A stretch of 64,000 nucleotides of DNA, from assembly GCA_021800165.1 (NCBI GenBank), contig JAJYZF010000004.1, forward strand, positions 3,296-67,295. The letters are read 5' to 3'. Made by a program: the position numbers and the translations under genes. Of this stretch, positions 21,444-37,400 are shown piece by piece. Source of the DNA: Planctomycetota bacterium (GTDB lineage: Bacteria; Planctomycetota; Phycisphaerae; WQYP01). The notes below the pieces were generated by a model that was not told the origin of the DNA, searched no databases, and worked only from the letters and a program-made list of their open reading frames with translations. Each line of letters begins with the position of its first letter. Within the stretch, counting starts at the first letter, position 1.

Positions 21444-22183
21444 GAAGTTTCCATGGTCTTCGTCAGCCCTGCGCGGACGGATAGCTTGTGGAAAGTCGAG
21501 CGTAGGATTGTCGCTACGGCGACGGGCAATGAGGCCCAGACGGCCAAGTGGGCCATTGGGGGGTACCGAAGCGATCAGCTTTCAGTCCCGATTGGCGGCT
21601 CCTGTCCCGATGCGTCGGGAGATTTCGGCCTCCCTGCCCCAACGGGGGCGGGTAAGTTCCCCAGGTTATTTACGCGAGGGGCAAGGAAGAGAATTCGCCC
21701 CTGACCGGCCACCGGTGCTGGGACTTGAAAAAAGTGATAGTGCCGCAACGACACCATCACTTTTCTTAGCTACTGAAAGGGTGTCATTGCCTGTTGGCCT
21801 CCTTGACGTCGATGTGCTCGATGGTCTTCCGGGCCGAGACCGCCGCGGTGCCACCCCGTCAAATATGATCGCCCATACATTCACCCGCCCCACGACAGCA
21901 TCGGAAAATCGCGACGAAAAAACCGGCCGTGCCTACCTGTACTTCGCCGGGCGTTTACAATCCTCACGGTCTTGAGGTGTTGCTTTCGCCATAACGCACT
22001 TCAATATTGCCCAGCGAAATCATACTGAAAACCCCACACTAAAAAAATGCATCCGGCCTCCCGTCTCGTTAAATCCTGCCTCCTCGGCATCACAATGCCG
22101 GGAATGGTAACGGAAGAATTCCGGATTGGCGAGTTTTCGGGCTATGGGTTCGGTGTTCAGGGGCAGGATGCAGGTTTTCAGCT

Positions 22184-22639
22184 TTAATCTTTCGGGGTTA
22201 CAGAGGTGGATTGCTGGATCGTCCTTATGCTGACTTCGCGTACCCGTCGCAGTTTCTGATCGCTGGTGATAAATTCGTCCGCTCCTGCCGAAATCGCGGT
22301 ACCAATGTGTAGGGCGTCCATCGCGCCCAAGCCGTATCGGCAGGCGATGTCAACAGCGATGCGGGTGATTGCCGGCGACGCGGGAATTTCTTCAACGGGG
22401 CCGGCAAAAAATTCCAGCATGAATTGAAGTTCCGCCTTGGCCAAAGCCGCTTCCCGGCTATTGGCAAGGTGACTGCGGTAGGCCGGACGGGCAATGAGTT
22501 CCAATCGCAGGTAATCACTGACCAGCAGGGTACGCCCGGCATCTCGCAAAATAGCGATTGCGGCGAGGCGTTGCGATGGTAACCCGGCGAAGGCGGTAAT
22601 CACAATGTTGGCATCAAGAAAGGTTTTGAGTCTTGCCAT
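22184..22639 (-). CDS. PIN-domain ribonuclease toxin (VapC-like)
   Basis: FLDANIVI...D...ITSD acidic PIN residues, 151 aa. Confidence 0.8.
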   Translation of the reverse strand: MARLKTFLDANIVITAFAGLPSQRLAAIAILRDAGRTLLVSDYLRLELIARPAYRSHLANSREAALAKAELQFMLEFFAGPVEEIPASPAITRIAVDIACRYGLGAMDALHIGTAISAGADEFITSDQKLRRVREVSIRTIQQSTSVTPKD

Positions 22640-22875
22640 CAGGGCCGCTCACCTCGGCGTGAGCGTATCTCGCGGCTTATATCATCAGGACTCATTGATC
22701 GCCTGTTGAAATTCAGTGCGGTCTGGCGGGCCGCTTCCAAACGGCGGACCCATTGGTCTCGCGTTTTTTGGACTGAGGCGGCGGCAGGCACCGGTGCAGT
22801 TTCCCGACGGCGAGTATGCCCACCCCGCTTCCCAGCTTTTTTAGGCACATCGTGTTGATCAATAAGTGTCTTCAT
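22639..22875 (-). CDS. Putative antitoxin for the PIN toxin (VapB-like)
   Basis: Small ORF whose TGA stop overlaps the PIN ATG (TGATG). ATG at 22873-22875 (MKTLID...) chosen. The ORF-track start is an upstream TTG. Confidence 0.45.
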   Translation of the reverse strand: MKTLIDQHDVPKKAGKRGGHTRRRETAPVPAAASVQKTRDQWVRRLEAARQTALNFNRRSMSPDDISREIRSRRGERP

Positions 22876-22958
22876 AATGGTTATCGTAGCGAAACATCGC
22901 GGGCGTTTCAAACCGCCGGGCGTGCATGGAGAACGGCGAATTAAAGAGCCAGCCGAAT

Positions 22959-23996
22959 TCAGGAGGCGGGAGACGGACTGCGTGGGTTTTCGGTTTTCAG
23001 TGCGGGTGGCGACAGAGGTATAACGTTTGCTTTGTTAAAGGCGTCAACCAATGGGACATACTCGTCGAGGGTGCCGACGCGGCTGTTTGGGGGCGGAAGC
23101 AGGAATAGTGCGGACTGATCGCGGCAATAGACGTGGTTTGCCATCCACGCGGTTATGGCGTTGATCCACGCGGCCCGGCTGGCGTGGCTGGTTAGTTTAA
23201 GCTGGCTGTTGAGAATTTGGTCGAGCCTGTGTTTGGGCCCTTTGAAACCCAAAGCGGCGCAGCACGACGAAAGCGGAAAGGTGAAAATCGCCTGCTTCGC
23301 CCAATTTTCTGGTATCGCCGCTTCCAGCGGCGACGGCTGAAGCGCCTTGTTGCCATCACGCGGGTCCGATTCGGCCAGCGCATAGAGTCCCACGGGGAGG
23401 TCGGAGGTAACCAAGGTTCGGCCATCTTTCTCATCAAACCAGTAAAGGTACCAGCATATTGTTTGAAGATGGCTACGGATATGGTCGACATCCTTGAGTA
23501 TTCCGTCCGAACCAGGATTATTCGGATACTCGCCCACCACCAACCCCGCCTTACTCAAGGGATCGATTTTTTCCTTTATCTCCAGAGCTTCGCGGGTACG
23601 CATGGCCATTGCCGCGATGTACACGACGACCTGTTCATGTGAACTGTAGTCGAACGAGCGCGGTTTGGTCCGCAGGATATCCACGATTTTGGCCATCGCG
23701 GGGTGTTCAATTTGCCCAAGCTCACCCTCGACGTGGCACTGGCCGGCGGAATCTGCTGGGGAGTCGTAGAGGTGGAGTACGTAGGCAACGCTTTTGGGGC
23801 TGCCACCGGTCCATTTTGGCTTGATCACCCCATCCCTTCCAGGTCGCATAAAATACTGGAACAATTCCCCATCTGGCAGGCAAAACCGTTCGAGGTACGC
23901 CCTGTTGACATGGTGATGCTTTACCGGCTTATTCGGCAGTTGGCTAGGGTGTTGGGTTGAGGGCGGAATGGTGTAGCTCCAAAATAATGTCGTCAT
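22959..23996 (-). CDS. DUF4238-family protein
   Basis: N-terminal HHVNRAYLERF matches the DUF4238 signature (HyvPqfYLk.F). ATG at 23994-23996. Confidence 0.55.
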   Translation of the reverse strand: MTTLFWSYTIPPSTQHPSQLPNKPVKHHHVNRAYLERFCLPDGELFQYFMRPGRDGVIKPKWTGGSPKSVAYVLHLYDSPADSAGQCHVEGELGQIEHPAMAKIVDILRTKPRSFDYSSHEQVVVYIAAMAMRTREALEIKEKIDPLSKAGLVVGEYPNNPGSDGILKDVDHIRSHLQTICWYLYWFDEKDGRTLVTSDLPVGLYALAESDPRDGNKALQPSPLEAAIPENWAKQAIFTFPLSSCCAALGFKGPKHRLDQILNSQLKLTSHASRAAWINAITAWMANHVYCRDQSALFLLPPPNSRVGTLDEYVPLVDAFNKANVIPLSPPALKTENPRSPSPAS

Positions 23997-24062
23997 TTCC
24001 TGAGACGCAACCAAAGCTGTGAATGCGATCGGAGGCCCCTTGCGAAAAACCCTCGTTTTTCG

Positions 24063-35415: not shown

Positions 35416-35429
35416 AGGTAGTTCAAATT

Positions 35430-35915
35430 ATGTATCTCCTGGACGCGAATGTCTTTATTGAGGCCGCGAAACGCTATTATGCCTTCGACTTGGTGCCGCA
35501 ATTTTGGACGCGGCTGATTGAACAGGAGAAAGCCGGGCGATTATGCAGCATCGACCGCATCAGGGACGAACTGCGGAGGGGCAAAGATAGGCTGGCCCAA
35601 TGGGCCTCCACGGACTTTTCCGAGGCTTTCCGGAACTCGGCGGAGGCGAAGACCATCAAGGCTTACAGCAAAGTGATGAATTGGGTCCAAGAACAACCGC
35701 AATTGATTCCCGCCGCGAAAGATGAATTCGCCCGTTGCGCCGATGGATGGCTGGTCGCCTACGCGATTGCGCACGCATGTACAGTAGTGACGCACGAGGT
35801 ATTTGATGCAAACACCAGGCGCAGGGTGAAAATTCCCAATGTTTGCAGGGCGTTCGACATTCAGTACGTCGATACCTACGCGATGCTGCGACGCCTGGGC
35901 ATTCAACTGGTCTGA
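35430..35915 (+). CDS. DUF4411-family PIN-like protein (partner of COG2856)
   Basis: MYLLDANVFIEAAKRYY... D-rich PIN-like core. Translationally coupled to the ImmA gene (4-nt overlap if the upstream GTG is used). ATG at 35430 preferred. Confidence 0.7.
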   Translation: MYLLDANVFIEAAKRYYAFDLVPQFWTRLIEQEKAGRLCSIDRIRDELRRGKDRLAQWASTDFSEAFRNSAEAKTIKAYSKVMNWVQEQPQLIPAAKDEFARCADGWLVAYAIAHACTVVTHEVFDANTRRRVKIPNVCRAFDIQYVDTYAMLRRLGIQLV

Positions 35916-35949
35916 CCGCCCTACTCCGGACATTAAATTGAGAATGAAA

Positions 35950-37350
35950 TTTGCCGAGTATGTCTGCGGCCCGCAAAAAATGGCCACAACTCATCCCCAT
36001 CCGGACCGTCCCCACGCCCATTCCCCCGCGCCCACGCTCTGCGTACCTCTGCGTCCGGAGTTTATCCCGATGTCTATCGGGACGGTGAGCCCCCCCCGCG
36101 GCCGCAGCCGCCTTTACTCCCGACTCCCGACTCCCGTCTCCTGTCTCCTGACTCCTAACTCCCAAATCCTAACTCCTGCGGCCACAGCCGCTATTACCCC
36201 CCCCCATACCCCGCCTATCACTCAACCAAGCGGAACTCCCGATGGAAGGCTCATTCCCGATGGCTATCGGGACGCAGCCAAGCCTCGTTCCGCCTGGCCG
36301 CAGGCCCTTAAACCGCCTGCGATCATTGACAAGTAAATACGTGCCTCGCCACAGCGGCCCCGTCGAAGCCACAGGCGTGCACCACACCAAAATAAGGAAT
36401 TCGACTCATGCCCATGCTGCGCCTGAAACAAGCACAAAACCGACCACTAACCCGGAAAATTAAAAATGTTTGGACACTTTGGCCATCTTGGCCATCTTAC
36501 CCCAAAACCCCAACAAAACCGCCCATTTTTCAACCTGTCCAAGATGGCCAACCCCCAAAAACTTGGCCACCTTGGCCATCTTACCCGTCGCCGTCCTCCC
36601 GTTGAGGCATGGATGCCGAAATCCTCGATGTGGCAGGAGCCAAGCATCGGGAAGGCATGGATGCCGAAATCCTCGATGTGGCAGGAGCCACGCATCGGGA
36701 ACTCCTGACTCCTAACTCCCGTCGCGGCATGGACGCCGAAATCATCGATGCTGGAGGACCGGCGTATCGGGACCTCCCAACTCCTAACTCCTAACTCCTT
36801 ACCAAAAAAAACGTGTTGATCTTGTCGATCTTGATAATCTTGCCCAAAAATCCAACGCAGTGCCCCGTGTCCCTTCGTGTCCGATATTTATCCCGTCGTC
36901 ATTTAATCTGTGTAAGGCGTTTATCCCGAAGTCCATCGGGATGGATCCCCCTGTCCGCGCTCCGTGAACCTTTGTGTCCATTGTGGTAAAAAAAACGCCA
37001 TCCTTCTCCGTTCTTCGCGCCTTCGTCACTTCGTGTTTAACCCGTCGTCGCGCCCCCGTTAAGGCACGGATGCCGAAATCCCGATGTGGCAGGAGCCAAA
37101 CATCGGGACTGAAACCTGACCGCTTCCCCGCGTCCCCTGCGGTAAAAAATCGCCGCAGCTCTGCCGACCGCAGCCCTCCACCCGCCCGAGGGTACCGCCA
37201 CACATTCTGCCAAGCGCGGAAGCGGTGTGCTTGACAGAAAGTCCCATCCGCGACGCCCGGCACGATGCCCGCGGCAAAAAGGCGGAAGCGGGCGGTTGCC
37301 GCAAAATCTAATCGCACCCCCGCCCGAACTAAAAACCTCTGCCGCTTGCC
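35950..37350. repeat. 1.4-kb repeat-dense noncoding region upstream of tRNA-Lys
   Basis: About 48-bp tandem units GGCATGGATGCCGAAATCCTCGATGTGGCAGGAGCC(A/C)(A/G)GCATCGGGAA at 36606, 36654, a degenerate one at 36727 and a partial copy at about 37061. ACTCCTAACTCC-type tracts at 36120-36180, 36697-36727 and 36770-36800. TTGGCCATCTT direct and inverted copies at 36469-36590. CCCGATG-N-ATCGGGAC hairpins at 36065, 36255 and 36925. C8 and C9 tracts at 36090-36097 and 36197-36205. No credible ORF. Confidence 0.6.
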
Positions 37351-37400
37351 AAATCCGCTGCCCGCCTTAGAATTATAAACTGCACTCGCGCGGGGGCAAT

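What the first reader, a model, noticed from the sequence alone, without database searches (positions are those of the whole stretch)
22100..37400. Decayed about 15-kb defence and TA island ending at tRNA-Lys
Between the glycan-utilisation operon and tRNA-Lys almost every gene is an accessory type: VapBC, DUF4238, DUF3800, an HNH_2 endonuclease, a methyltransferase fragment, CsrA, RES-Xre, the HNH-TPR cassette and ImmA-DUF4411. The region also holds several unambiguous gene remnants (a cysteine desulfurase remnant with an in-frame TAG, two Sel1 fragments, a tRNA fragment). The pattern fits repeated insertion and deletion at a tRNA-associated hotspot. Such junkyards are where novel systems usually sit.
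Basis: partly seen in the sequence, partly recalled or inferred. Interest (0 to 1): 0.6.

Follow-up and report, generated by a model that had tools for sequence, protein, structure and literature searches.

The report
Decayed defence and toxin-antitoxin island
A 16.6-kb stretch of an uncultured Phycisphaerae genome is a species-specific, half-decayed collection of toxin-antitoxin and phage-defence genes and gene fragments; this is an ordinary kind of island, with one unusual nuclease gene in it.

Summary
Window 20667-37296 is slightly wider on the left than reported. It carries PIN/VapC, DUF4238, DUF3800, a sulfur-binding-domain-HNH restriction-like enzyme, CsrA, RES-Xre, a TM2 protein, an HNH-TPR protein and ImmA-DUF4411. 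It also carries real remnants: a cysteine desulfurase N-terminus with an in-frame TAG, one or two Sel1 fragments, a methyltransferase N-terminus, and the 3' half of an initiator-tRNA-like gene.

Confident genes cover only 53% of the stretch. None of it occurs at the matching position in the closest other species, where homology stops at the ADH start codon (20666) and resumes at the tRNA-Lys promoter (37296-37340).

The tRNA-hotspot mechanism is only partly supported:
- The island lies on the 5' side of tRNA-Lys.
- No integrase or transposase remnant was found.
- There is no tRNA-Lys repeat and no compositional break.
- The two flanks are not adjacent in any relative found.

It is better described as a mosaic accessory island at a synteny breakpoint, conserved within the species.

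PADLOC models find no complete known system. The most unusual item is the HNH-TPR protein, whose TPR scaffold resembles that of SIR2-TPR proteins. This suggests an effector swap.

Overall: a new member of a known kind, of modest interest.

The parts
20668..22183 (.). Left non-coding margin of the variable block. It is repeat-rich and includes a doubtful 232-aa ORF at 21277-21975.
   Evidence: Homology to relative L088 ends at 20666. No Pfam or PADLOC hit for the ORF or in six-frame translation. It holds copy 2 of a roughly 245-nt repeat (21226-21469) and an inverted copy (21568-21650) of the right-margin repeat.
22184..22639 (-). PIN-domain toxin (VapC-like)
   Evidence: Pfam PIN E 3e-13, positions 2-119 of 120. 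Present in all conspecific contigs.
22639..22875 (-). Candidate antitoxin (78-aa ORF). Its stop overlaps the PIN ATG by 1 nt.
   Evidence: Read from the sequence. No Pfam, NCBIfam or PADLOC hit. Not called in public assemblies. Its role as an antitoxin is inferred from position only.
22959..24014 (-). DUF4238 protein (345-351 aa)
   Evidence: Pfam DUF4238, 45 bits against a cut-off of 27, positions 1-272 of 281. No PADLOC hit. A single DUF4238 gene protects E. coli against T7 (PMC9122126).
24063..24332 (-). 89-aa ORF just upstream of the DUF4238 gene, function unknown
   Evidence: Called in all assemblies. No family hit.
24769..25710 (-). DUF3800 protein (RNase H-like fold family)
   Evidence: Pfam DUF3800 E 1.9e-11, positions 1-147 of 149. 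No Rfam DUF3800-associated RNA motif nearby.
25773..26075 (-). Sel1-repeat gene fragment
   Evidence: Pfam Sel1 E 2.6e-6 on the six-frame translation. The database call is 'Sel1 (weak)'.
26052..26306 (+). Cysteine desulfurase (Aminotran_5) N-terminal remnant. It has an in-frame TAG at 26139-26141 and is cut off where the SBD-HNH gene ends.
   Evidence: Pfam Aminotran_5 positions 1-81 of 371, E 2e-18. Sequence read directly.
26306..27439 (-). Sulfur-binding-domain + HNH endonuclease, like the type IV restriction enzymes that depend on phosphorothioated DNA
   Evidence: Pfam HNH_2. NCBIfam PT-DNA_restrict NF045808, 114.8 bits over positions 19-281 of 284, below the 180-bit cut-off. PDB SBDHga1 8h0l, E 1.9e-5. 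PADLOC HNH 3.7e-10.
27995..28195 (-). Second Sel1-like fragment with a frameshift
   Evidence: Six-frame reading only: 'NNLGNMYAAGLG' in one frame and 'GVPQDYARV' in another. Not significant in Pfam.
28317..28562 (+). N-terminal fragment of a type II DNA methyltransferase (SPPY motif)
   Evidence: PADLOC MTase_II E 2e-5. Pfam N6_N4_Mtase positions 2-40 of 221, E 0.016.
28612..28923 (-). CsrA-family RNA-binding regulator (accessory copy)
   Evidence: Pfam CsrA E 8.6e-19. PHROG 'CsrA-like regulator'. Absent from the relatives' loci.
29097..29137 (+). Orphan 3' half (anticodon loop to acceptor stem) of an initiator-tRNA-like gene. A possible relic of an attachment site.
   Evidence: 36 of 41 bases identical to E. 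coli tRNA-fMet positions 32-72 (sequence recalled from memory). Score 57 against shuffles 13.7 +/- 2.2, maximum 24. Sequence.
29271..29747 (-). RES-domain toxin
   Evidence: Pfam RES E 3.3e-33, positions 2-157 of 157. dN/dS 0.31 against strain L097.
29744..30205 (-). Xre-type antitoxin of the RES toxin
   Evidence: Pfam Xre-like-HTH and Xre_MbcA_ParS_C. 4-nt overlap with the RES gene. No non-synonymous change against L097.
30811..31254 (-). Zinc-ribbon + TM2-domain membrane protein
   Evidence: Pfam TM2 E 3.3e-15 plus zinc-ribbon hits. phrog_10292.
31691..33640 (-). HNH nuclease + beta-rich domain + TPR array in one protein (615-649 aa)
   Evidence: phrog_6544 E 4e-24 on residues 41-220. The N-terminal 286 aa equal a full member of a roughly 270-aa standalone HNH family, and the C-terminus matches TPR proteins. 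Only the same-species cluster P0121 has both halves. AlphaFold2 model of the N-terminal part has pLDDT 92.5. The best TPR relatives are SIR2_2-TPR proteins.
33836..34213 (+). Doubtful 125-aa ORF with a weak HTH-like stretch, upstream of the ImmA gene
   Evidence: Pfam HTH_23 E 0.049 only. Not called in public assemblies.
34270..35415 (+). HTH + Zn-peptidase (ImmA/IrrE, RmrA-like) antitoxin/regulator
   Evidence: Pfam Peptidase_M78 E 1e-17. PADLOC RmrA E 1e-14. phrog_2439 E 8e-40.
35412..35915 (+). DUF4411 PIN-like putative toxin; 4-nt overlap with the ImmA gene
   Evidence: Pfam DUF4411 E 1.9e-54, positions 1-158 of 159. This architecture is described in PMC5499597.
35916..37296 (.). Right non-coding margin: arrays of hairpin-forming repeats, no protein remnant
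   Evidence: Repeat families D1-D7. Self-BLAST. Six-frame Pfam is empty. Copies occur elsewhere in the same genome (L075 19355-19464).
37346..37474 (+). tRNA-Lys(ttt) with its conserved promoter. This is the first conserved feature of the right flank, not part of the island.
   Evidence: ARAGORN. Promoter-like TTGCCA-16-TAGAAT, conserved in L009, L011 and L036.

Best explanation
Window 20667-37296 is a species-specific accessory island in an uncultured Phycisphaerae (Planctomycetota) genome. It sits where two blocks of core genes meet: the GH116-GH172-ADH operon on the left and tRNA-Lys plus a lipid A acyltransferase on the right. These two blocks are not neighbours in related species.

The island is a mosaic built by several separate insertion and deletion events. 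It is not one integrase-delivered element.

The apparently intact parts are small, self-sufficient modules:
- Three toxin-antitoxin-type pairs: PIN with a small upstream ORF, Xre-RES, and HTH-Zn-peptidase with DUF4411.
- Single-gene defence-type nucleases: a sulfur-binding-domain-HNH enzyme resembling restriction enzymes that cut phosphorothioated DNA, a DUF4238 protein, a DUF3800 RNase H-like protein, and an HNH-TPR protein.

Between these modules lie fragments of genes that were cut by the insertions.

The following is inferred, not shown. The addiction-type modules make deletion of the region costly. The defence genes give occasional benefit against phages. The block therefore persists in the species while unselected DNA in it decays.

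tRNA-Lys marks the edge only because the tRNA and its promoter are the first conserved sequence on that side.
For: **Gene content and remnants.**

**Low coding density.** Confident genes cover 53% of the stretch.

**Absent from relatives.**
- tblastn of every island protein against 65 related loci hits only conspecific contigs.
- Nucleotide homology to the 91%-identical relative L009 starts at 37296, and to L011 and L036 at about 37340.
- Homology to L088 ends at 20666.

**What relatives carry instead.**
- Beyond ADH: AroDE, an AP endonuclease, an M50 peptidase, SecA and ThiG, or FabF.
- Upstream of tRNA-Lys: NagB/PIG-L, ComB, BFD, RidA and tRNA-Arg.
- L010 has AbiEii with DUF6088 at the junction, and L036 an extra AraC gene.

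**Mosaic structure.**
- The desulfurase remnant ends exactly where the SBD-HNH gene stops.
- An orphan tRNA-fMet-like 3' half lies between the CsrA and RES modules.

**Real, and conserved within the species.**
- The order is identical in contigs from independent NCBI, JGI, ENA and Logan assemblies.
- It is also kept in a strain at 98.0% nucleotide identity.

**Selection in the intact modules against that strain.** The Xre gene has no non-synonymous change. dN/dS is 0.31 for RES and 0.21 for the HNH + beta part.
Against: - There is no compositional signal of foreign origin. Acquisition is inferred from distribution only.
- No relative with both flanks adjacent was found. An empty site, and therefore gain rather than loss, is not demonstrated.
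- No intraspecific presence/absence variation was seen.
- The stabilising role of the toxin-antitoxin modules and the defence activity of every gene are inferred from family membership. None was tested.
- Several family assignments are below curated cut-offs: NF045808 scores 114.8 against 180, there is no PADLOC hit for DUF4238, and no RmrT hit for DUF4411.
- SNP counts for the selection estimates are small.
Confidence: 0.75

Rival explanations
1. A classical tRNA-targeted genomic island. One integrative element entered tRNA-Lys through a tyrosine recombinase and later decayed.
For: The block ends about 60-100 nt from tRNA-Lys. An orphan tRNA 3' half of the kind left by such integrations lies inside the block.
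Against: - The island is on the 5' side of the tRNA, outside its conserved promoter.
- No integrase domain appears in the ORFs or in six-frame translations.
- There is no partial copy of tRNA-Lys.
- The tRNA fragment is of initiator-Met type, not Lys, and lies in the middle of the block.
- Composition does not differ from the flanks.
Confidence: 0.05
2. An ancestral region that relatives lost or rearranged. The block is old native DNA, and its absence elsewhere reflects the generally low synteny of these genomes.
For: - No GC or tetranucleotide break.
- The flanks themselves are rearranged between species: L088, L092, L011 and L010 all differ.
- The island is fixed within the species.
Against: - Every intact gene belongs to a typically mobile or accessory family.
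- None has a homologue in 65 related loci.
- The truncated housekeeping-type genes and the tRNA half indicate insertions into earlier DNA.
- Strain-level SNP density is lower in the island (about 1 per kb) than in the left flank (about 4.5 per kb). This argues against greater age.
Confidence: 0.12
3. Remnant of a single prophage, satellite or conjugative element.
For: Several proteins hit PHROG families: CsrA-like regulator, ImmA-type regulator, phrog_11126, phrog_6544 and TM2 families. The tRNA half could be an old att site.
Against: - No structural, replication, packaging, conjugation or recombinase gene or fragment was found.
- No nucleotide match to phage or plasmid collections.
- The DUF3800 protein found no relative in viral contigs.
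Confidence: 0.06
4. Assembly artefact or chimeric MAG contig.
For: Many metagenome contigs break at the repeat-rich margins. One contig (L075) diverges at the 285-nt repeat.
Against: The whole order, from the GH operon through the island to the acyltransferase, is reproduced at 99.8-100% identity in independent NCBI, JGI and ENA assemblies.
Confidence: 0.02

Closest known systems
Defence islands / accessory 'junkyard' regions (named from my own knowledge: Makarova et al. 2011; Doron et al. 2018)
   Same: Restriction-type nucleases, toxin-antitoxin modules and uncharacterised defence-associated domains are clustered in a strain- or species-specific block. Pseudogenes lie between them.
   Different: PADLOC models recognise no complete canonical system. 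There are no mobility genes. The host is an uncultured Phycisphaerae genome. Nearly half of the DNA is non-coding.
tRNA-linked integrative genomic islands (own knowledge: Williams 2002, integrase sublocation preference in tRNA genes)
   Same: The island is adjacent to a tRNA gene. Inside it is an orphan anticodon-loop-to-3'-end tRNA fragment, typical of att sites.
   Different: It lies on the wrong side of tRNA-Lys. There is no integrase, no tRNA-Lys repeat and no compositional anomaly.
RES-Xre toxin-antitoxin systems (ParST / MbcTA type)
   Same: A RES-domain toxin is preceded by an antitoxin with an Xre-like HTH and the MbcA/ParS C-terminal toxin-binding domain. The two genes overlap.
   Different: Activity and target (NAD+ degradation or Prs modification) are unknown here.
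RosmerTA, and the HTH-DUF955 + PIN-like three-component toxin-antitoxin modules (Millman 2022 preprint 10.1101/2022.05.11.491447; Matelska 2017 PMC5499597)
   Same: A fused HTH-Zn-peptidase gene matches RmrA models (E 1e-14). It is followed by an overlapping small putative toxin, DUF4411.1, exactly the architecture Matelska et al. describe.
   Different: The DUF4411 toxin matches no PADLOC RmrT model. Defence activity is untested.
Phosphorothioate-dependent type IV restriction enzymes (ScoMcrA / SprMcrA; SBD-HNH)
   Same: A sulfur-binding-domain-like region plus a C-terminal HNH. NF045808 aligns over 19-281 of 284 positions. There is similarity to the solved SBD structure 8h0l.
   Different: The score is below the curated cut-off (114.8 against 180). 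The specificity for modified DNA is unknown.
Defence-associated sirtuins (DSR2-type: N-terminal SIR2 effector + C-terminal alpha-solenoid sensor; PMC11850899, abstract only) and uncharacterised SIR2_2-TPR proteins
   Same: The C-terminal linker and TPR array of the HNH-TPR protein align with those of SIR2_2-TPR proteins, from just after their SIR2 domain to their C-terminal end. The effector-at-the-N-terminus, repeat-sensor-at-the-C-terminus layout is the same.
   Different: The effector is an HNH nuclease with a beta-rich domain instead of SIR2. The repeat array is shorter. There is no PADLOC DSR hit. The architecture was seen only in this species.

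Membership tests
tRNA-targeted integrative genomic island | Site-specific recombinase (integrase) gene at an island edge | tested here: not met
   No recombinase or transposase domain in any ORF, or in six-frame translations of the non-coding DNA.
tRNA-targeted integrative genomic island | Island abuts the 3' part of the target tRNA | tested here: not met
   tRNA-Lys is on the + strand at 37400-37474. The island lies upstream and ends at the tRNA promoter.
tRNA-targeted integrative genomic island | Direct repeat of a tRNA segment at the distal boundary | tested here: not met
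   Only chance 11-nt matches to tRNA-Lys. The single tRNA fragment present is of initiator-Met type and lies mid-island.
tRNA-targeted integrative genomic island | Compositional deviation from the host genome | tested here: not met
   GC is 0.52-0.60 throughout, and tetranucleotide distance is within the range of the flanks.
Defence island | Several defence-type genes clustered together | tested here: met
   SBD-HNH restriction-like enzyme, DUF4238 (PMC9122126), RmrA-like gene with DUF4411, RES-Xre and PIN modules, and a methyltransferase remnant.
Defence island | Contains at least one complete, recognised defence system | tested here: inconclusive
   PADLOC HMMs hit only single components (HNH, RmrA, MTase fragment, weak ZorE HNH). 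PADLOC's system rules and DefenseFinder itself could not be run.
Defence island | Variable between related genomes | tested here: met
   Absent from all non-conspecific relatives recovered.
Chromosomal integration hotspot (same core flanks, alternative cargo) | The two flanking core genes are neighbours or collinear in relatives | tested here: not met
   Within the 10 kb upstream of tRNA-Lys available for L011 and L036, no left-flank gene appears. Within 10 kb beyond ADH in L088, no right-flank gene appears.
Chromosomal integration hotspot (same core flanks, alternative cargo) | Different accessory cargo at the same junction in other genomes | tested here: inconclusive
   L010 has AbiEii/DUF6088 directly upstream of the acyltransferase, and L036 has an extra AraC gene beside tRNA-Lys. 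These are only two cases, and no conspecific variation was seen.
RES-Xre toxin-antitoxin | RES toxin plus Xre-HTH antitoxin with the MbcA/ParS C-terminal domain, in one operon | tested here: met
   Pfam RES E 3.3e-33; Xre-like-HTH 3.6e-10; Xre_MbcA_ParS_C 1.2e-15; 4-nt overlap between the genes.
VapBC toxin-antitoxin | PIN-domain toxin | tested here: met
   Pfam PIN E 3e-13, nearly full length.
VapBC toxin-antitoxin | Upstream antitoxin with a recognisable DNA-binding fold | tested here: inconclusive
   A 78-aa ORF overlaps the PIN start, but it has no family hit and no gene call.
RosmerTA / HTH-DUF955 + PIN-like module | Antitoxin with HTH and Zn-peptidase (M78) domains | tested here: met
   Peptidase_M78 E 1e-17; PADLOC RmrA E 1e-14 over residues 32-312; phrog_2439 E 8e-40.
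RosmerTA / HTH-DUF955 + PIN-like module | Adjacent toxin recognised as RmrT | tested here: not met
   DUF4411 has no PADLOC hit. It does match the DUF4411.1 arrangement of Matelska et al..
Phosphorothioate-dependent type IV restriction enzyme | Sulfur-binding domain plus HNH nuclease, scoring above the curated family threshold | tested here: inconclusive
   Both domains are detected. NF045808 scores 114.8 bits against a cut-off of 180.
Phosphorothioate-dependent type IV restriction enzyme | Cleavage dependent on phosphorothioated DNA | not testable with these tools
   Needs biochemistry.
DUF4238 single-gene defence (Rousset et al. 2022) | DUF4238 domain protein acting alone against phage | tested here: inconclusive
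   The domain is present above the Pfam cut-off. There is no PADLOC model hit. Activity is untestable here.
DSR-like effector-sensor proteins / SIR2_2-TPR family | N-terminal SIR2 NADase effector | tested here: not met
   The N-terminus is HNH plus a beta-rich domain.
DSR-like effector-sensor proteins / SIR2_2-TPR family | C-terminal helical-repeat array homologous to that of family members | tested here: met
   The best C-terminal matches include four SIR2_2-TPR proteins. The alignment to P0144 runs from residue 356, after its SIR2 domain, to its C-terminal end.
DUF3800 with associated structured RNA (Weinberg et al. 2017) | One of the DUF3800-I to DUF3800-XI RNA motifs next to the gene | tested here: not met
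   No Rfam hit up to E = 10 in 23950-26350. Folding of the 436-nt downstream spacer is not exceptional: z = 0.12 on the gene strand and -1.9 on the + strand.

The most novel reading that the evidence does not exclude
The HNH-TPR gene (31691-33640, - strand) may be a working single-protein phage sensor-nuclease of a type not yet described. It has the linker and TPR scaffold of SIR2_2-TPR (DSR-like) proteins, but a complete HNH + beta-domain nuclease has replaced the SIR2 NADase as effector. On this reading the TPR array binds a phage component and releases the nuclease.

A secondary possibility is that the lone DUF3800 gene works with an undescribed RNA encoded in the 750-nt non-coding spacer beside it.
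Probability: 0.25. Interest if true: 0.5.

Novelty: new member of a known kind. Interest (0 to 1): 0.3.

Why it matters
The island mainly serves as a worked example. A cluster of accessory genes beside a tRNA need not be a tRNA-integrated element. Here it is a mosaic at a synteny breakpoint, with no recombinase. It also documents defence and toxin-antitoxin content in Phycisphaerae, a lineage with almost no experimental data.

Only one item goes beyond cataloguing. The HNH-TPR protein, if active, would show that the TPR scaffold of SIR2-TPR proteins can carry different effectors. It would also give a function to a widespread, unnamed family of roughly 270-aa HNH proteins (phrog_6544).

Tried and rejected
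- **Wrong first gene picks.** My longest-ORF picks on the + strand at 18686-19441 and 19474-20670 were antisense shadows of the GH172 and ADH genes. Exact look-ups failed. Database gene calls corrected this.
- **Metagenome scan.** A scan with the ADH protein gave only distant hits on short contigs. Left-flank context came instead from homologues P0002 and P0003.
- **tRNA fragment.** ARAGORN and Rfam do not report it. It was confirmed by direct alignment.
- **tRNA repeats.** I searched for tRNA-Lys or tRNA-Arg repeats as att sites. Only chance matches turned up.
- **Composition.** GC, skew and tetranucleotide profiles show no discontinuity.
- **Recombinase remnants.** Six-frame Pfam scans of all non-coding stretches found no recombinase or transposase remnant.
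- **DUF3800-associated RNA.** Rfam gave nothing, and folding was not exceptional. No DUF3800 relative was found in viral contigs. No covariation test was therefore possible.
- **Mobile-element origin.** Megablast of the island against plasmid and phage collections gave no match.
- **HNH-TPR as an accidental fusion.** I considered that the ORF is an accidental fusion of two gene fragments. This is not excluded. Against it, the N-terminal part is a full-length family member with all invariant residues, and the TPR part matches relatives from the post-effector linker to the C-terminal end.

Full report
**Source and setting**

The window is essentially identical to contigs of an uncultured Phycisphaerae (Planctomycetota) population. 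These contigs were assembled independently at NCBI (GCA_027436015.1), JGI (3300039716), ENA and Logan.

The true left-flank genes are on the - strand: GH116 15757-18375, GH172 18401-19546, and a zinc-type alcohol dehydrogenase (ADH) 19606-20667. On the right lie tRNA-Lys(ttt) 37400-37474, a lipid A acyltransferase 37533-38522, and the lactate-utilisation (LutABC-type) genes.

**Check of the observation**

- Pfam gives PIN, DUF4238, DUF3800, HNH_2, CsrA, RES, TPR, Peptidase_M78 and DUF4411 at the stated places, mostly over nearly full model lengths.
- The RES partner carries the Xre-like HTH and the MbcA/ParS toxin-binding domain.
- The 'HNH-TPR cassette' is one ORF whose N-terminus is an HNH nuclease.
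- The 'VapB' is only a 78-aa ORF that overlaps the PIN start codon by one base. It has no family hit and no gene call in public assemblies.

The remnants are also real.

- An Aminotran_5 (cysteine desulfurase) N-terminus covers positions 1-81 of 371 (E 2e-18) at 26052-26306. It has an in-frame TAG at 26139-26141 and ends exactly at the stop codon of the neighbouring HNH gene.
- A Sel1 fragment lies at 25773-26075 (E 2.6e-6).
- A second, frameshifted Sel1-like stretch lies near 27995-28195. It is visible only by eye.
- A type II methyltransferase N-terminus with the SPPY motif lies at 28317-28559.
- A 41-nt stretch at 29097-29137 matches the anticodon loop to acceptor stem of initiator tRNA-Met. 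It is 36 of 41 bases identical to the E. coli sequence as I recall it. The alignment score is 57, against 13.7 +/- 2.2 for shuffles. ARAGORN and Rfam miss it.

Confident genes cover only 53% of the block.

**Boundaries and comparison with relatives**

I fetched 65 loci around acyltransferase homologues from species-representative genomes. I also fetched loci around close ADH homologues.

- tblastn of all island proteins hits only conspecific contigs.
- The closest other species (L009, about 91% nucleotide identity) aligns from window 37296 rightwards. L011 and L036 (about 82%) align from about 37340. This is the conserved promoter of tRNA-Lys.
- On the left, L088 (ADH 90% identical) aligns up to 20666, the ADH start codon.
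- The species-specific block is therefore 20667-37296, about 1.4 kb wider on the left than reported.

The two flanks are not neighbours in any relative.

- Beyond ADH, L088 has AroDE, an AP endonuclease, an M50 peptidase, SecA and ThiG. L092 has FabF.
- Upstream of tRNA-Lys, L011 and L036 have NagB/PIG-L, ComB, a BFD-like protein, RidA and tRNA-Arg.
- L010 lacks tRNA-Lys and has an AbiEii/DUF6088 toxin-antitoxin pair at that junction. L036 has an extra AraC gene there.

The island therefore sits at a synteny breakpoint that also carries accessory genes in at least one other lineage. A strict hotspot (same flanks, alternative cargo) could not be demonstrated.

**Conservation within the species**

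- The order is identical at 99.7-100% identity in all contigs long enough to show it.
- A strain at 98.0% identity keeps the HNH-TPR, TM2, Xre and RES genes.
- Many metagenome contigs end at the repeat-rich margins. I attribute this to the repeats, not to strain variation.
- In strain L077 the island has about 1 difference per kb, against about 4.5 per kb in the left flank. This argues against the island being older than its surroundings.

**Tests of the tRNA-island idea**

All of these tests came out negative.

- GC and tetranucleotide composition do not differ from the flanks.
- No integrase or transposase domain occurs in any ORF, or in six-frame translations of all non-coding stretches.
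- There is no partial copy of tRNA-Lys.
- The island is on the 5' side of the tRNA.
- There is no nucleotide match to plasmid or phage collections.

The initiator-tRNA half in the middle of the block is the only trace of a possible integrase-mediated event. It concerns a different tRNA.

The margins are 20668-22183 and 35916-37296. They are non-coding and full of short hairpin repeats of the TCCCGAT...ATCGGGA type, partly in inverted orientation on the two sides. The same repeat families occur elsewhere in the genome. One 285-nt copy is a clean insertion relative to L088.

**What the parts are**

- *Three toxin-antitoxin-type pairs.* These are PIN with its small ORF, Xre-RES, and an HTH-Zn-peptidase gene overlapping a DUF4411 PIN-like gene. 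The third is the arrangement described by Matelska et al. (PMC5499597). Its antitoxin matches RmrA of the RosmerTA defence system (10.1101/2022.05.11.491447).
- *The HNH_2 protein.* It has a sulfur-binding domain (PDB 8h0l, E 1.9e-5). It aligns over nearly the whole NCBIfam model for restriction enzymes that bind phosphorothioated DNA, but below the curated cut-off (114.8 against 180 bits).
- *DUF4238.* A single DUF4238 gene protects E. coli against T7 (PMC9122126). The protein here matches no PADLOC model.
- *DUF3800.* This is an RNase H-like domain used by type VII retrons and some Cas12a2 loci. It is associated with eleven unexplained RNA motifs (PMC7736814, PMC10910872, PMC5737381). None of those motifs is found here, and the flanking spacer does not fold exceptionally.
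- *PADLOC overall.* The models recognise no complete system.

**The HNH-TPR protein**

- A word-indexed search of 5.8 billion proteins found only a 96%-identical conspecific cluster.
- A full HMMER scan of 1.84 billion representatives found 5254 hits, but they match either residues 35-320 or residues 400-649. Among the best 150, only the conspecific cluster has both halves.
- The N-terminal part is a complete member of a family of roughly 270-aa standalone proteins (phrog_6544). It keeps all invariant residues of that family.
- Two homologues are solitary accessory genes, next to PemK or DUF2726 genes.
- The AlphaFold2 model (pLDDT 92.5) shows an HNH core followed by an all-beta domain. Structure searches match only the HNH part: McrA, Cap5, ScoMcrA and IscB.
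- The best C-terminal matches include four proteins with an N-terminal SIR2_2 domain followed by TPR arrays. The alignment with one of them runs from just after its SIR2 domain to its C-terminal end.
- I read this as an effector swap on a shared scaffold. The layout resembles the defence-associated sirtuins.
- Against the 98% strain, dN/dS is 0.21 for the HNH + beta part and 0.65 for the TPR part. The TPR part is the fastest-changing stretch of that comparison. This fits either a fast-evolving sensor or a dispensable tail, and the counts are small.

**Conclusion**

The finding is real and well described, but the mechanism offered is only partly right. The region is a mosaic accessory island at a junction of rearranged core blocks. 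It is kept in the species and made of small self-sufficient toxin-antitoxin and nuclease modules, interspersed with the debris of genes they disrupted.

The stabilising role of the addiction modules and the anti-phage role of the nucleases are inferences from family membership. The island is a new member of a known kind. Its one moderately novel element is the HNH-TPR architecture.

Noticed in passing
window 15467-15751 and 21226-21469: A hairpin-rich element of about 285 nt is a clean insertion between GH116 and the Methyltransf_21 gene relative to L088. A second copy (88% identical over 245 nt) lies at the left edge of the island, so the two copies bracket the GH116-GH172-ADH operon as direct repeats. 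The JGI contig (L075) switches to unrelated sequence exactly at the first copy.
   Followed up: partly
window 36000-37130 and 21568-21650; L075 19355-19464: Arrays of short hairpin repeats (GGCATGGATGCC..., CGATG...CATCGGGA) fill the right margin. There is an 83-nt inverted partial copy at the left margin, and further copies elsewhere in the genome. These may be REP- or MITE-like elements. No associated transposase was seen in the window.
   Followed up: partly
window 43140-44444: A 1.3-kb segment lies immediately 3' of tRNA-Gly(gcc) and holds a 305-aa ORF with no Pfam hit. It is present in L009 (85% aa identity) but replaced by about 390 nt in L011 and L036. This is a second small variable spot, this time on the 3' side of a tRNA.
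   Followed up: no
window 26052-27439: The cysteine desulfurase remnant abuts a restriction-like enzyme of the type that binds phosphorothioated DNA. DndA of the phosphorothioation pathway is itself a cysteine desulfurase (my own knowledge). The remnant could therefore be what is left of a dnd locus rather than of a housekeeping gene. With only 85 residues the two cannot be told apart.
   Followed up: no
window 25773-26075 and 27995-28195: Both Sel1 fragments are on the - strand on either side of the desulfurase remnant and the SBD-HNH gene. They might be the two halves of one Sel1 gene split by a 1.9-kb insertion.
   Followed up: no
window 30206-30810: The 605-nt non-coding spacer between the Xre and TM2 genes changes slowly between strains: 8 differences per kb, against 20-22 in the other spacers and 34 in the TPR region. 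It may hold a regulatory element or an RNA. The counts are small.
   Followed up: no
window 14643-27500 compared with L077 and L078: Strain-level SNP density is about four times lower inside the island than in the GH operon next to it.
   Followed up: partly
L010 1406-3134: A related species lacks tRNA-Lys upstream of the acyltransferase. It has an AbiEii toxin plus a DUF6088 protein there instead.
   Followed up: partly
window 18686-20670 (+): Long antisense open reading frames (251 and 398 aa) run over the GH172 and ADH genes. They are not genes and misled my first gene picks.
   Followed up: yes
window 29154-29270 compared with L097: The 117 nt between the tRNA fragment and the RES gene are far more divergent in the 98% strain (111 differences per kb), and its contig ends there. 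This may be a recombination boundary at the tRNA fragment.
   Followed up: no
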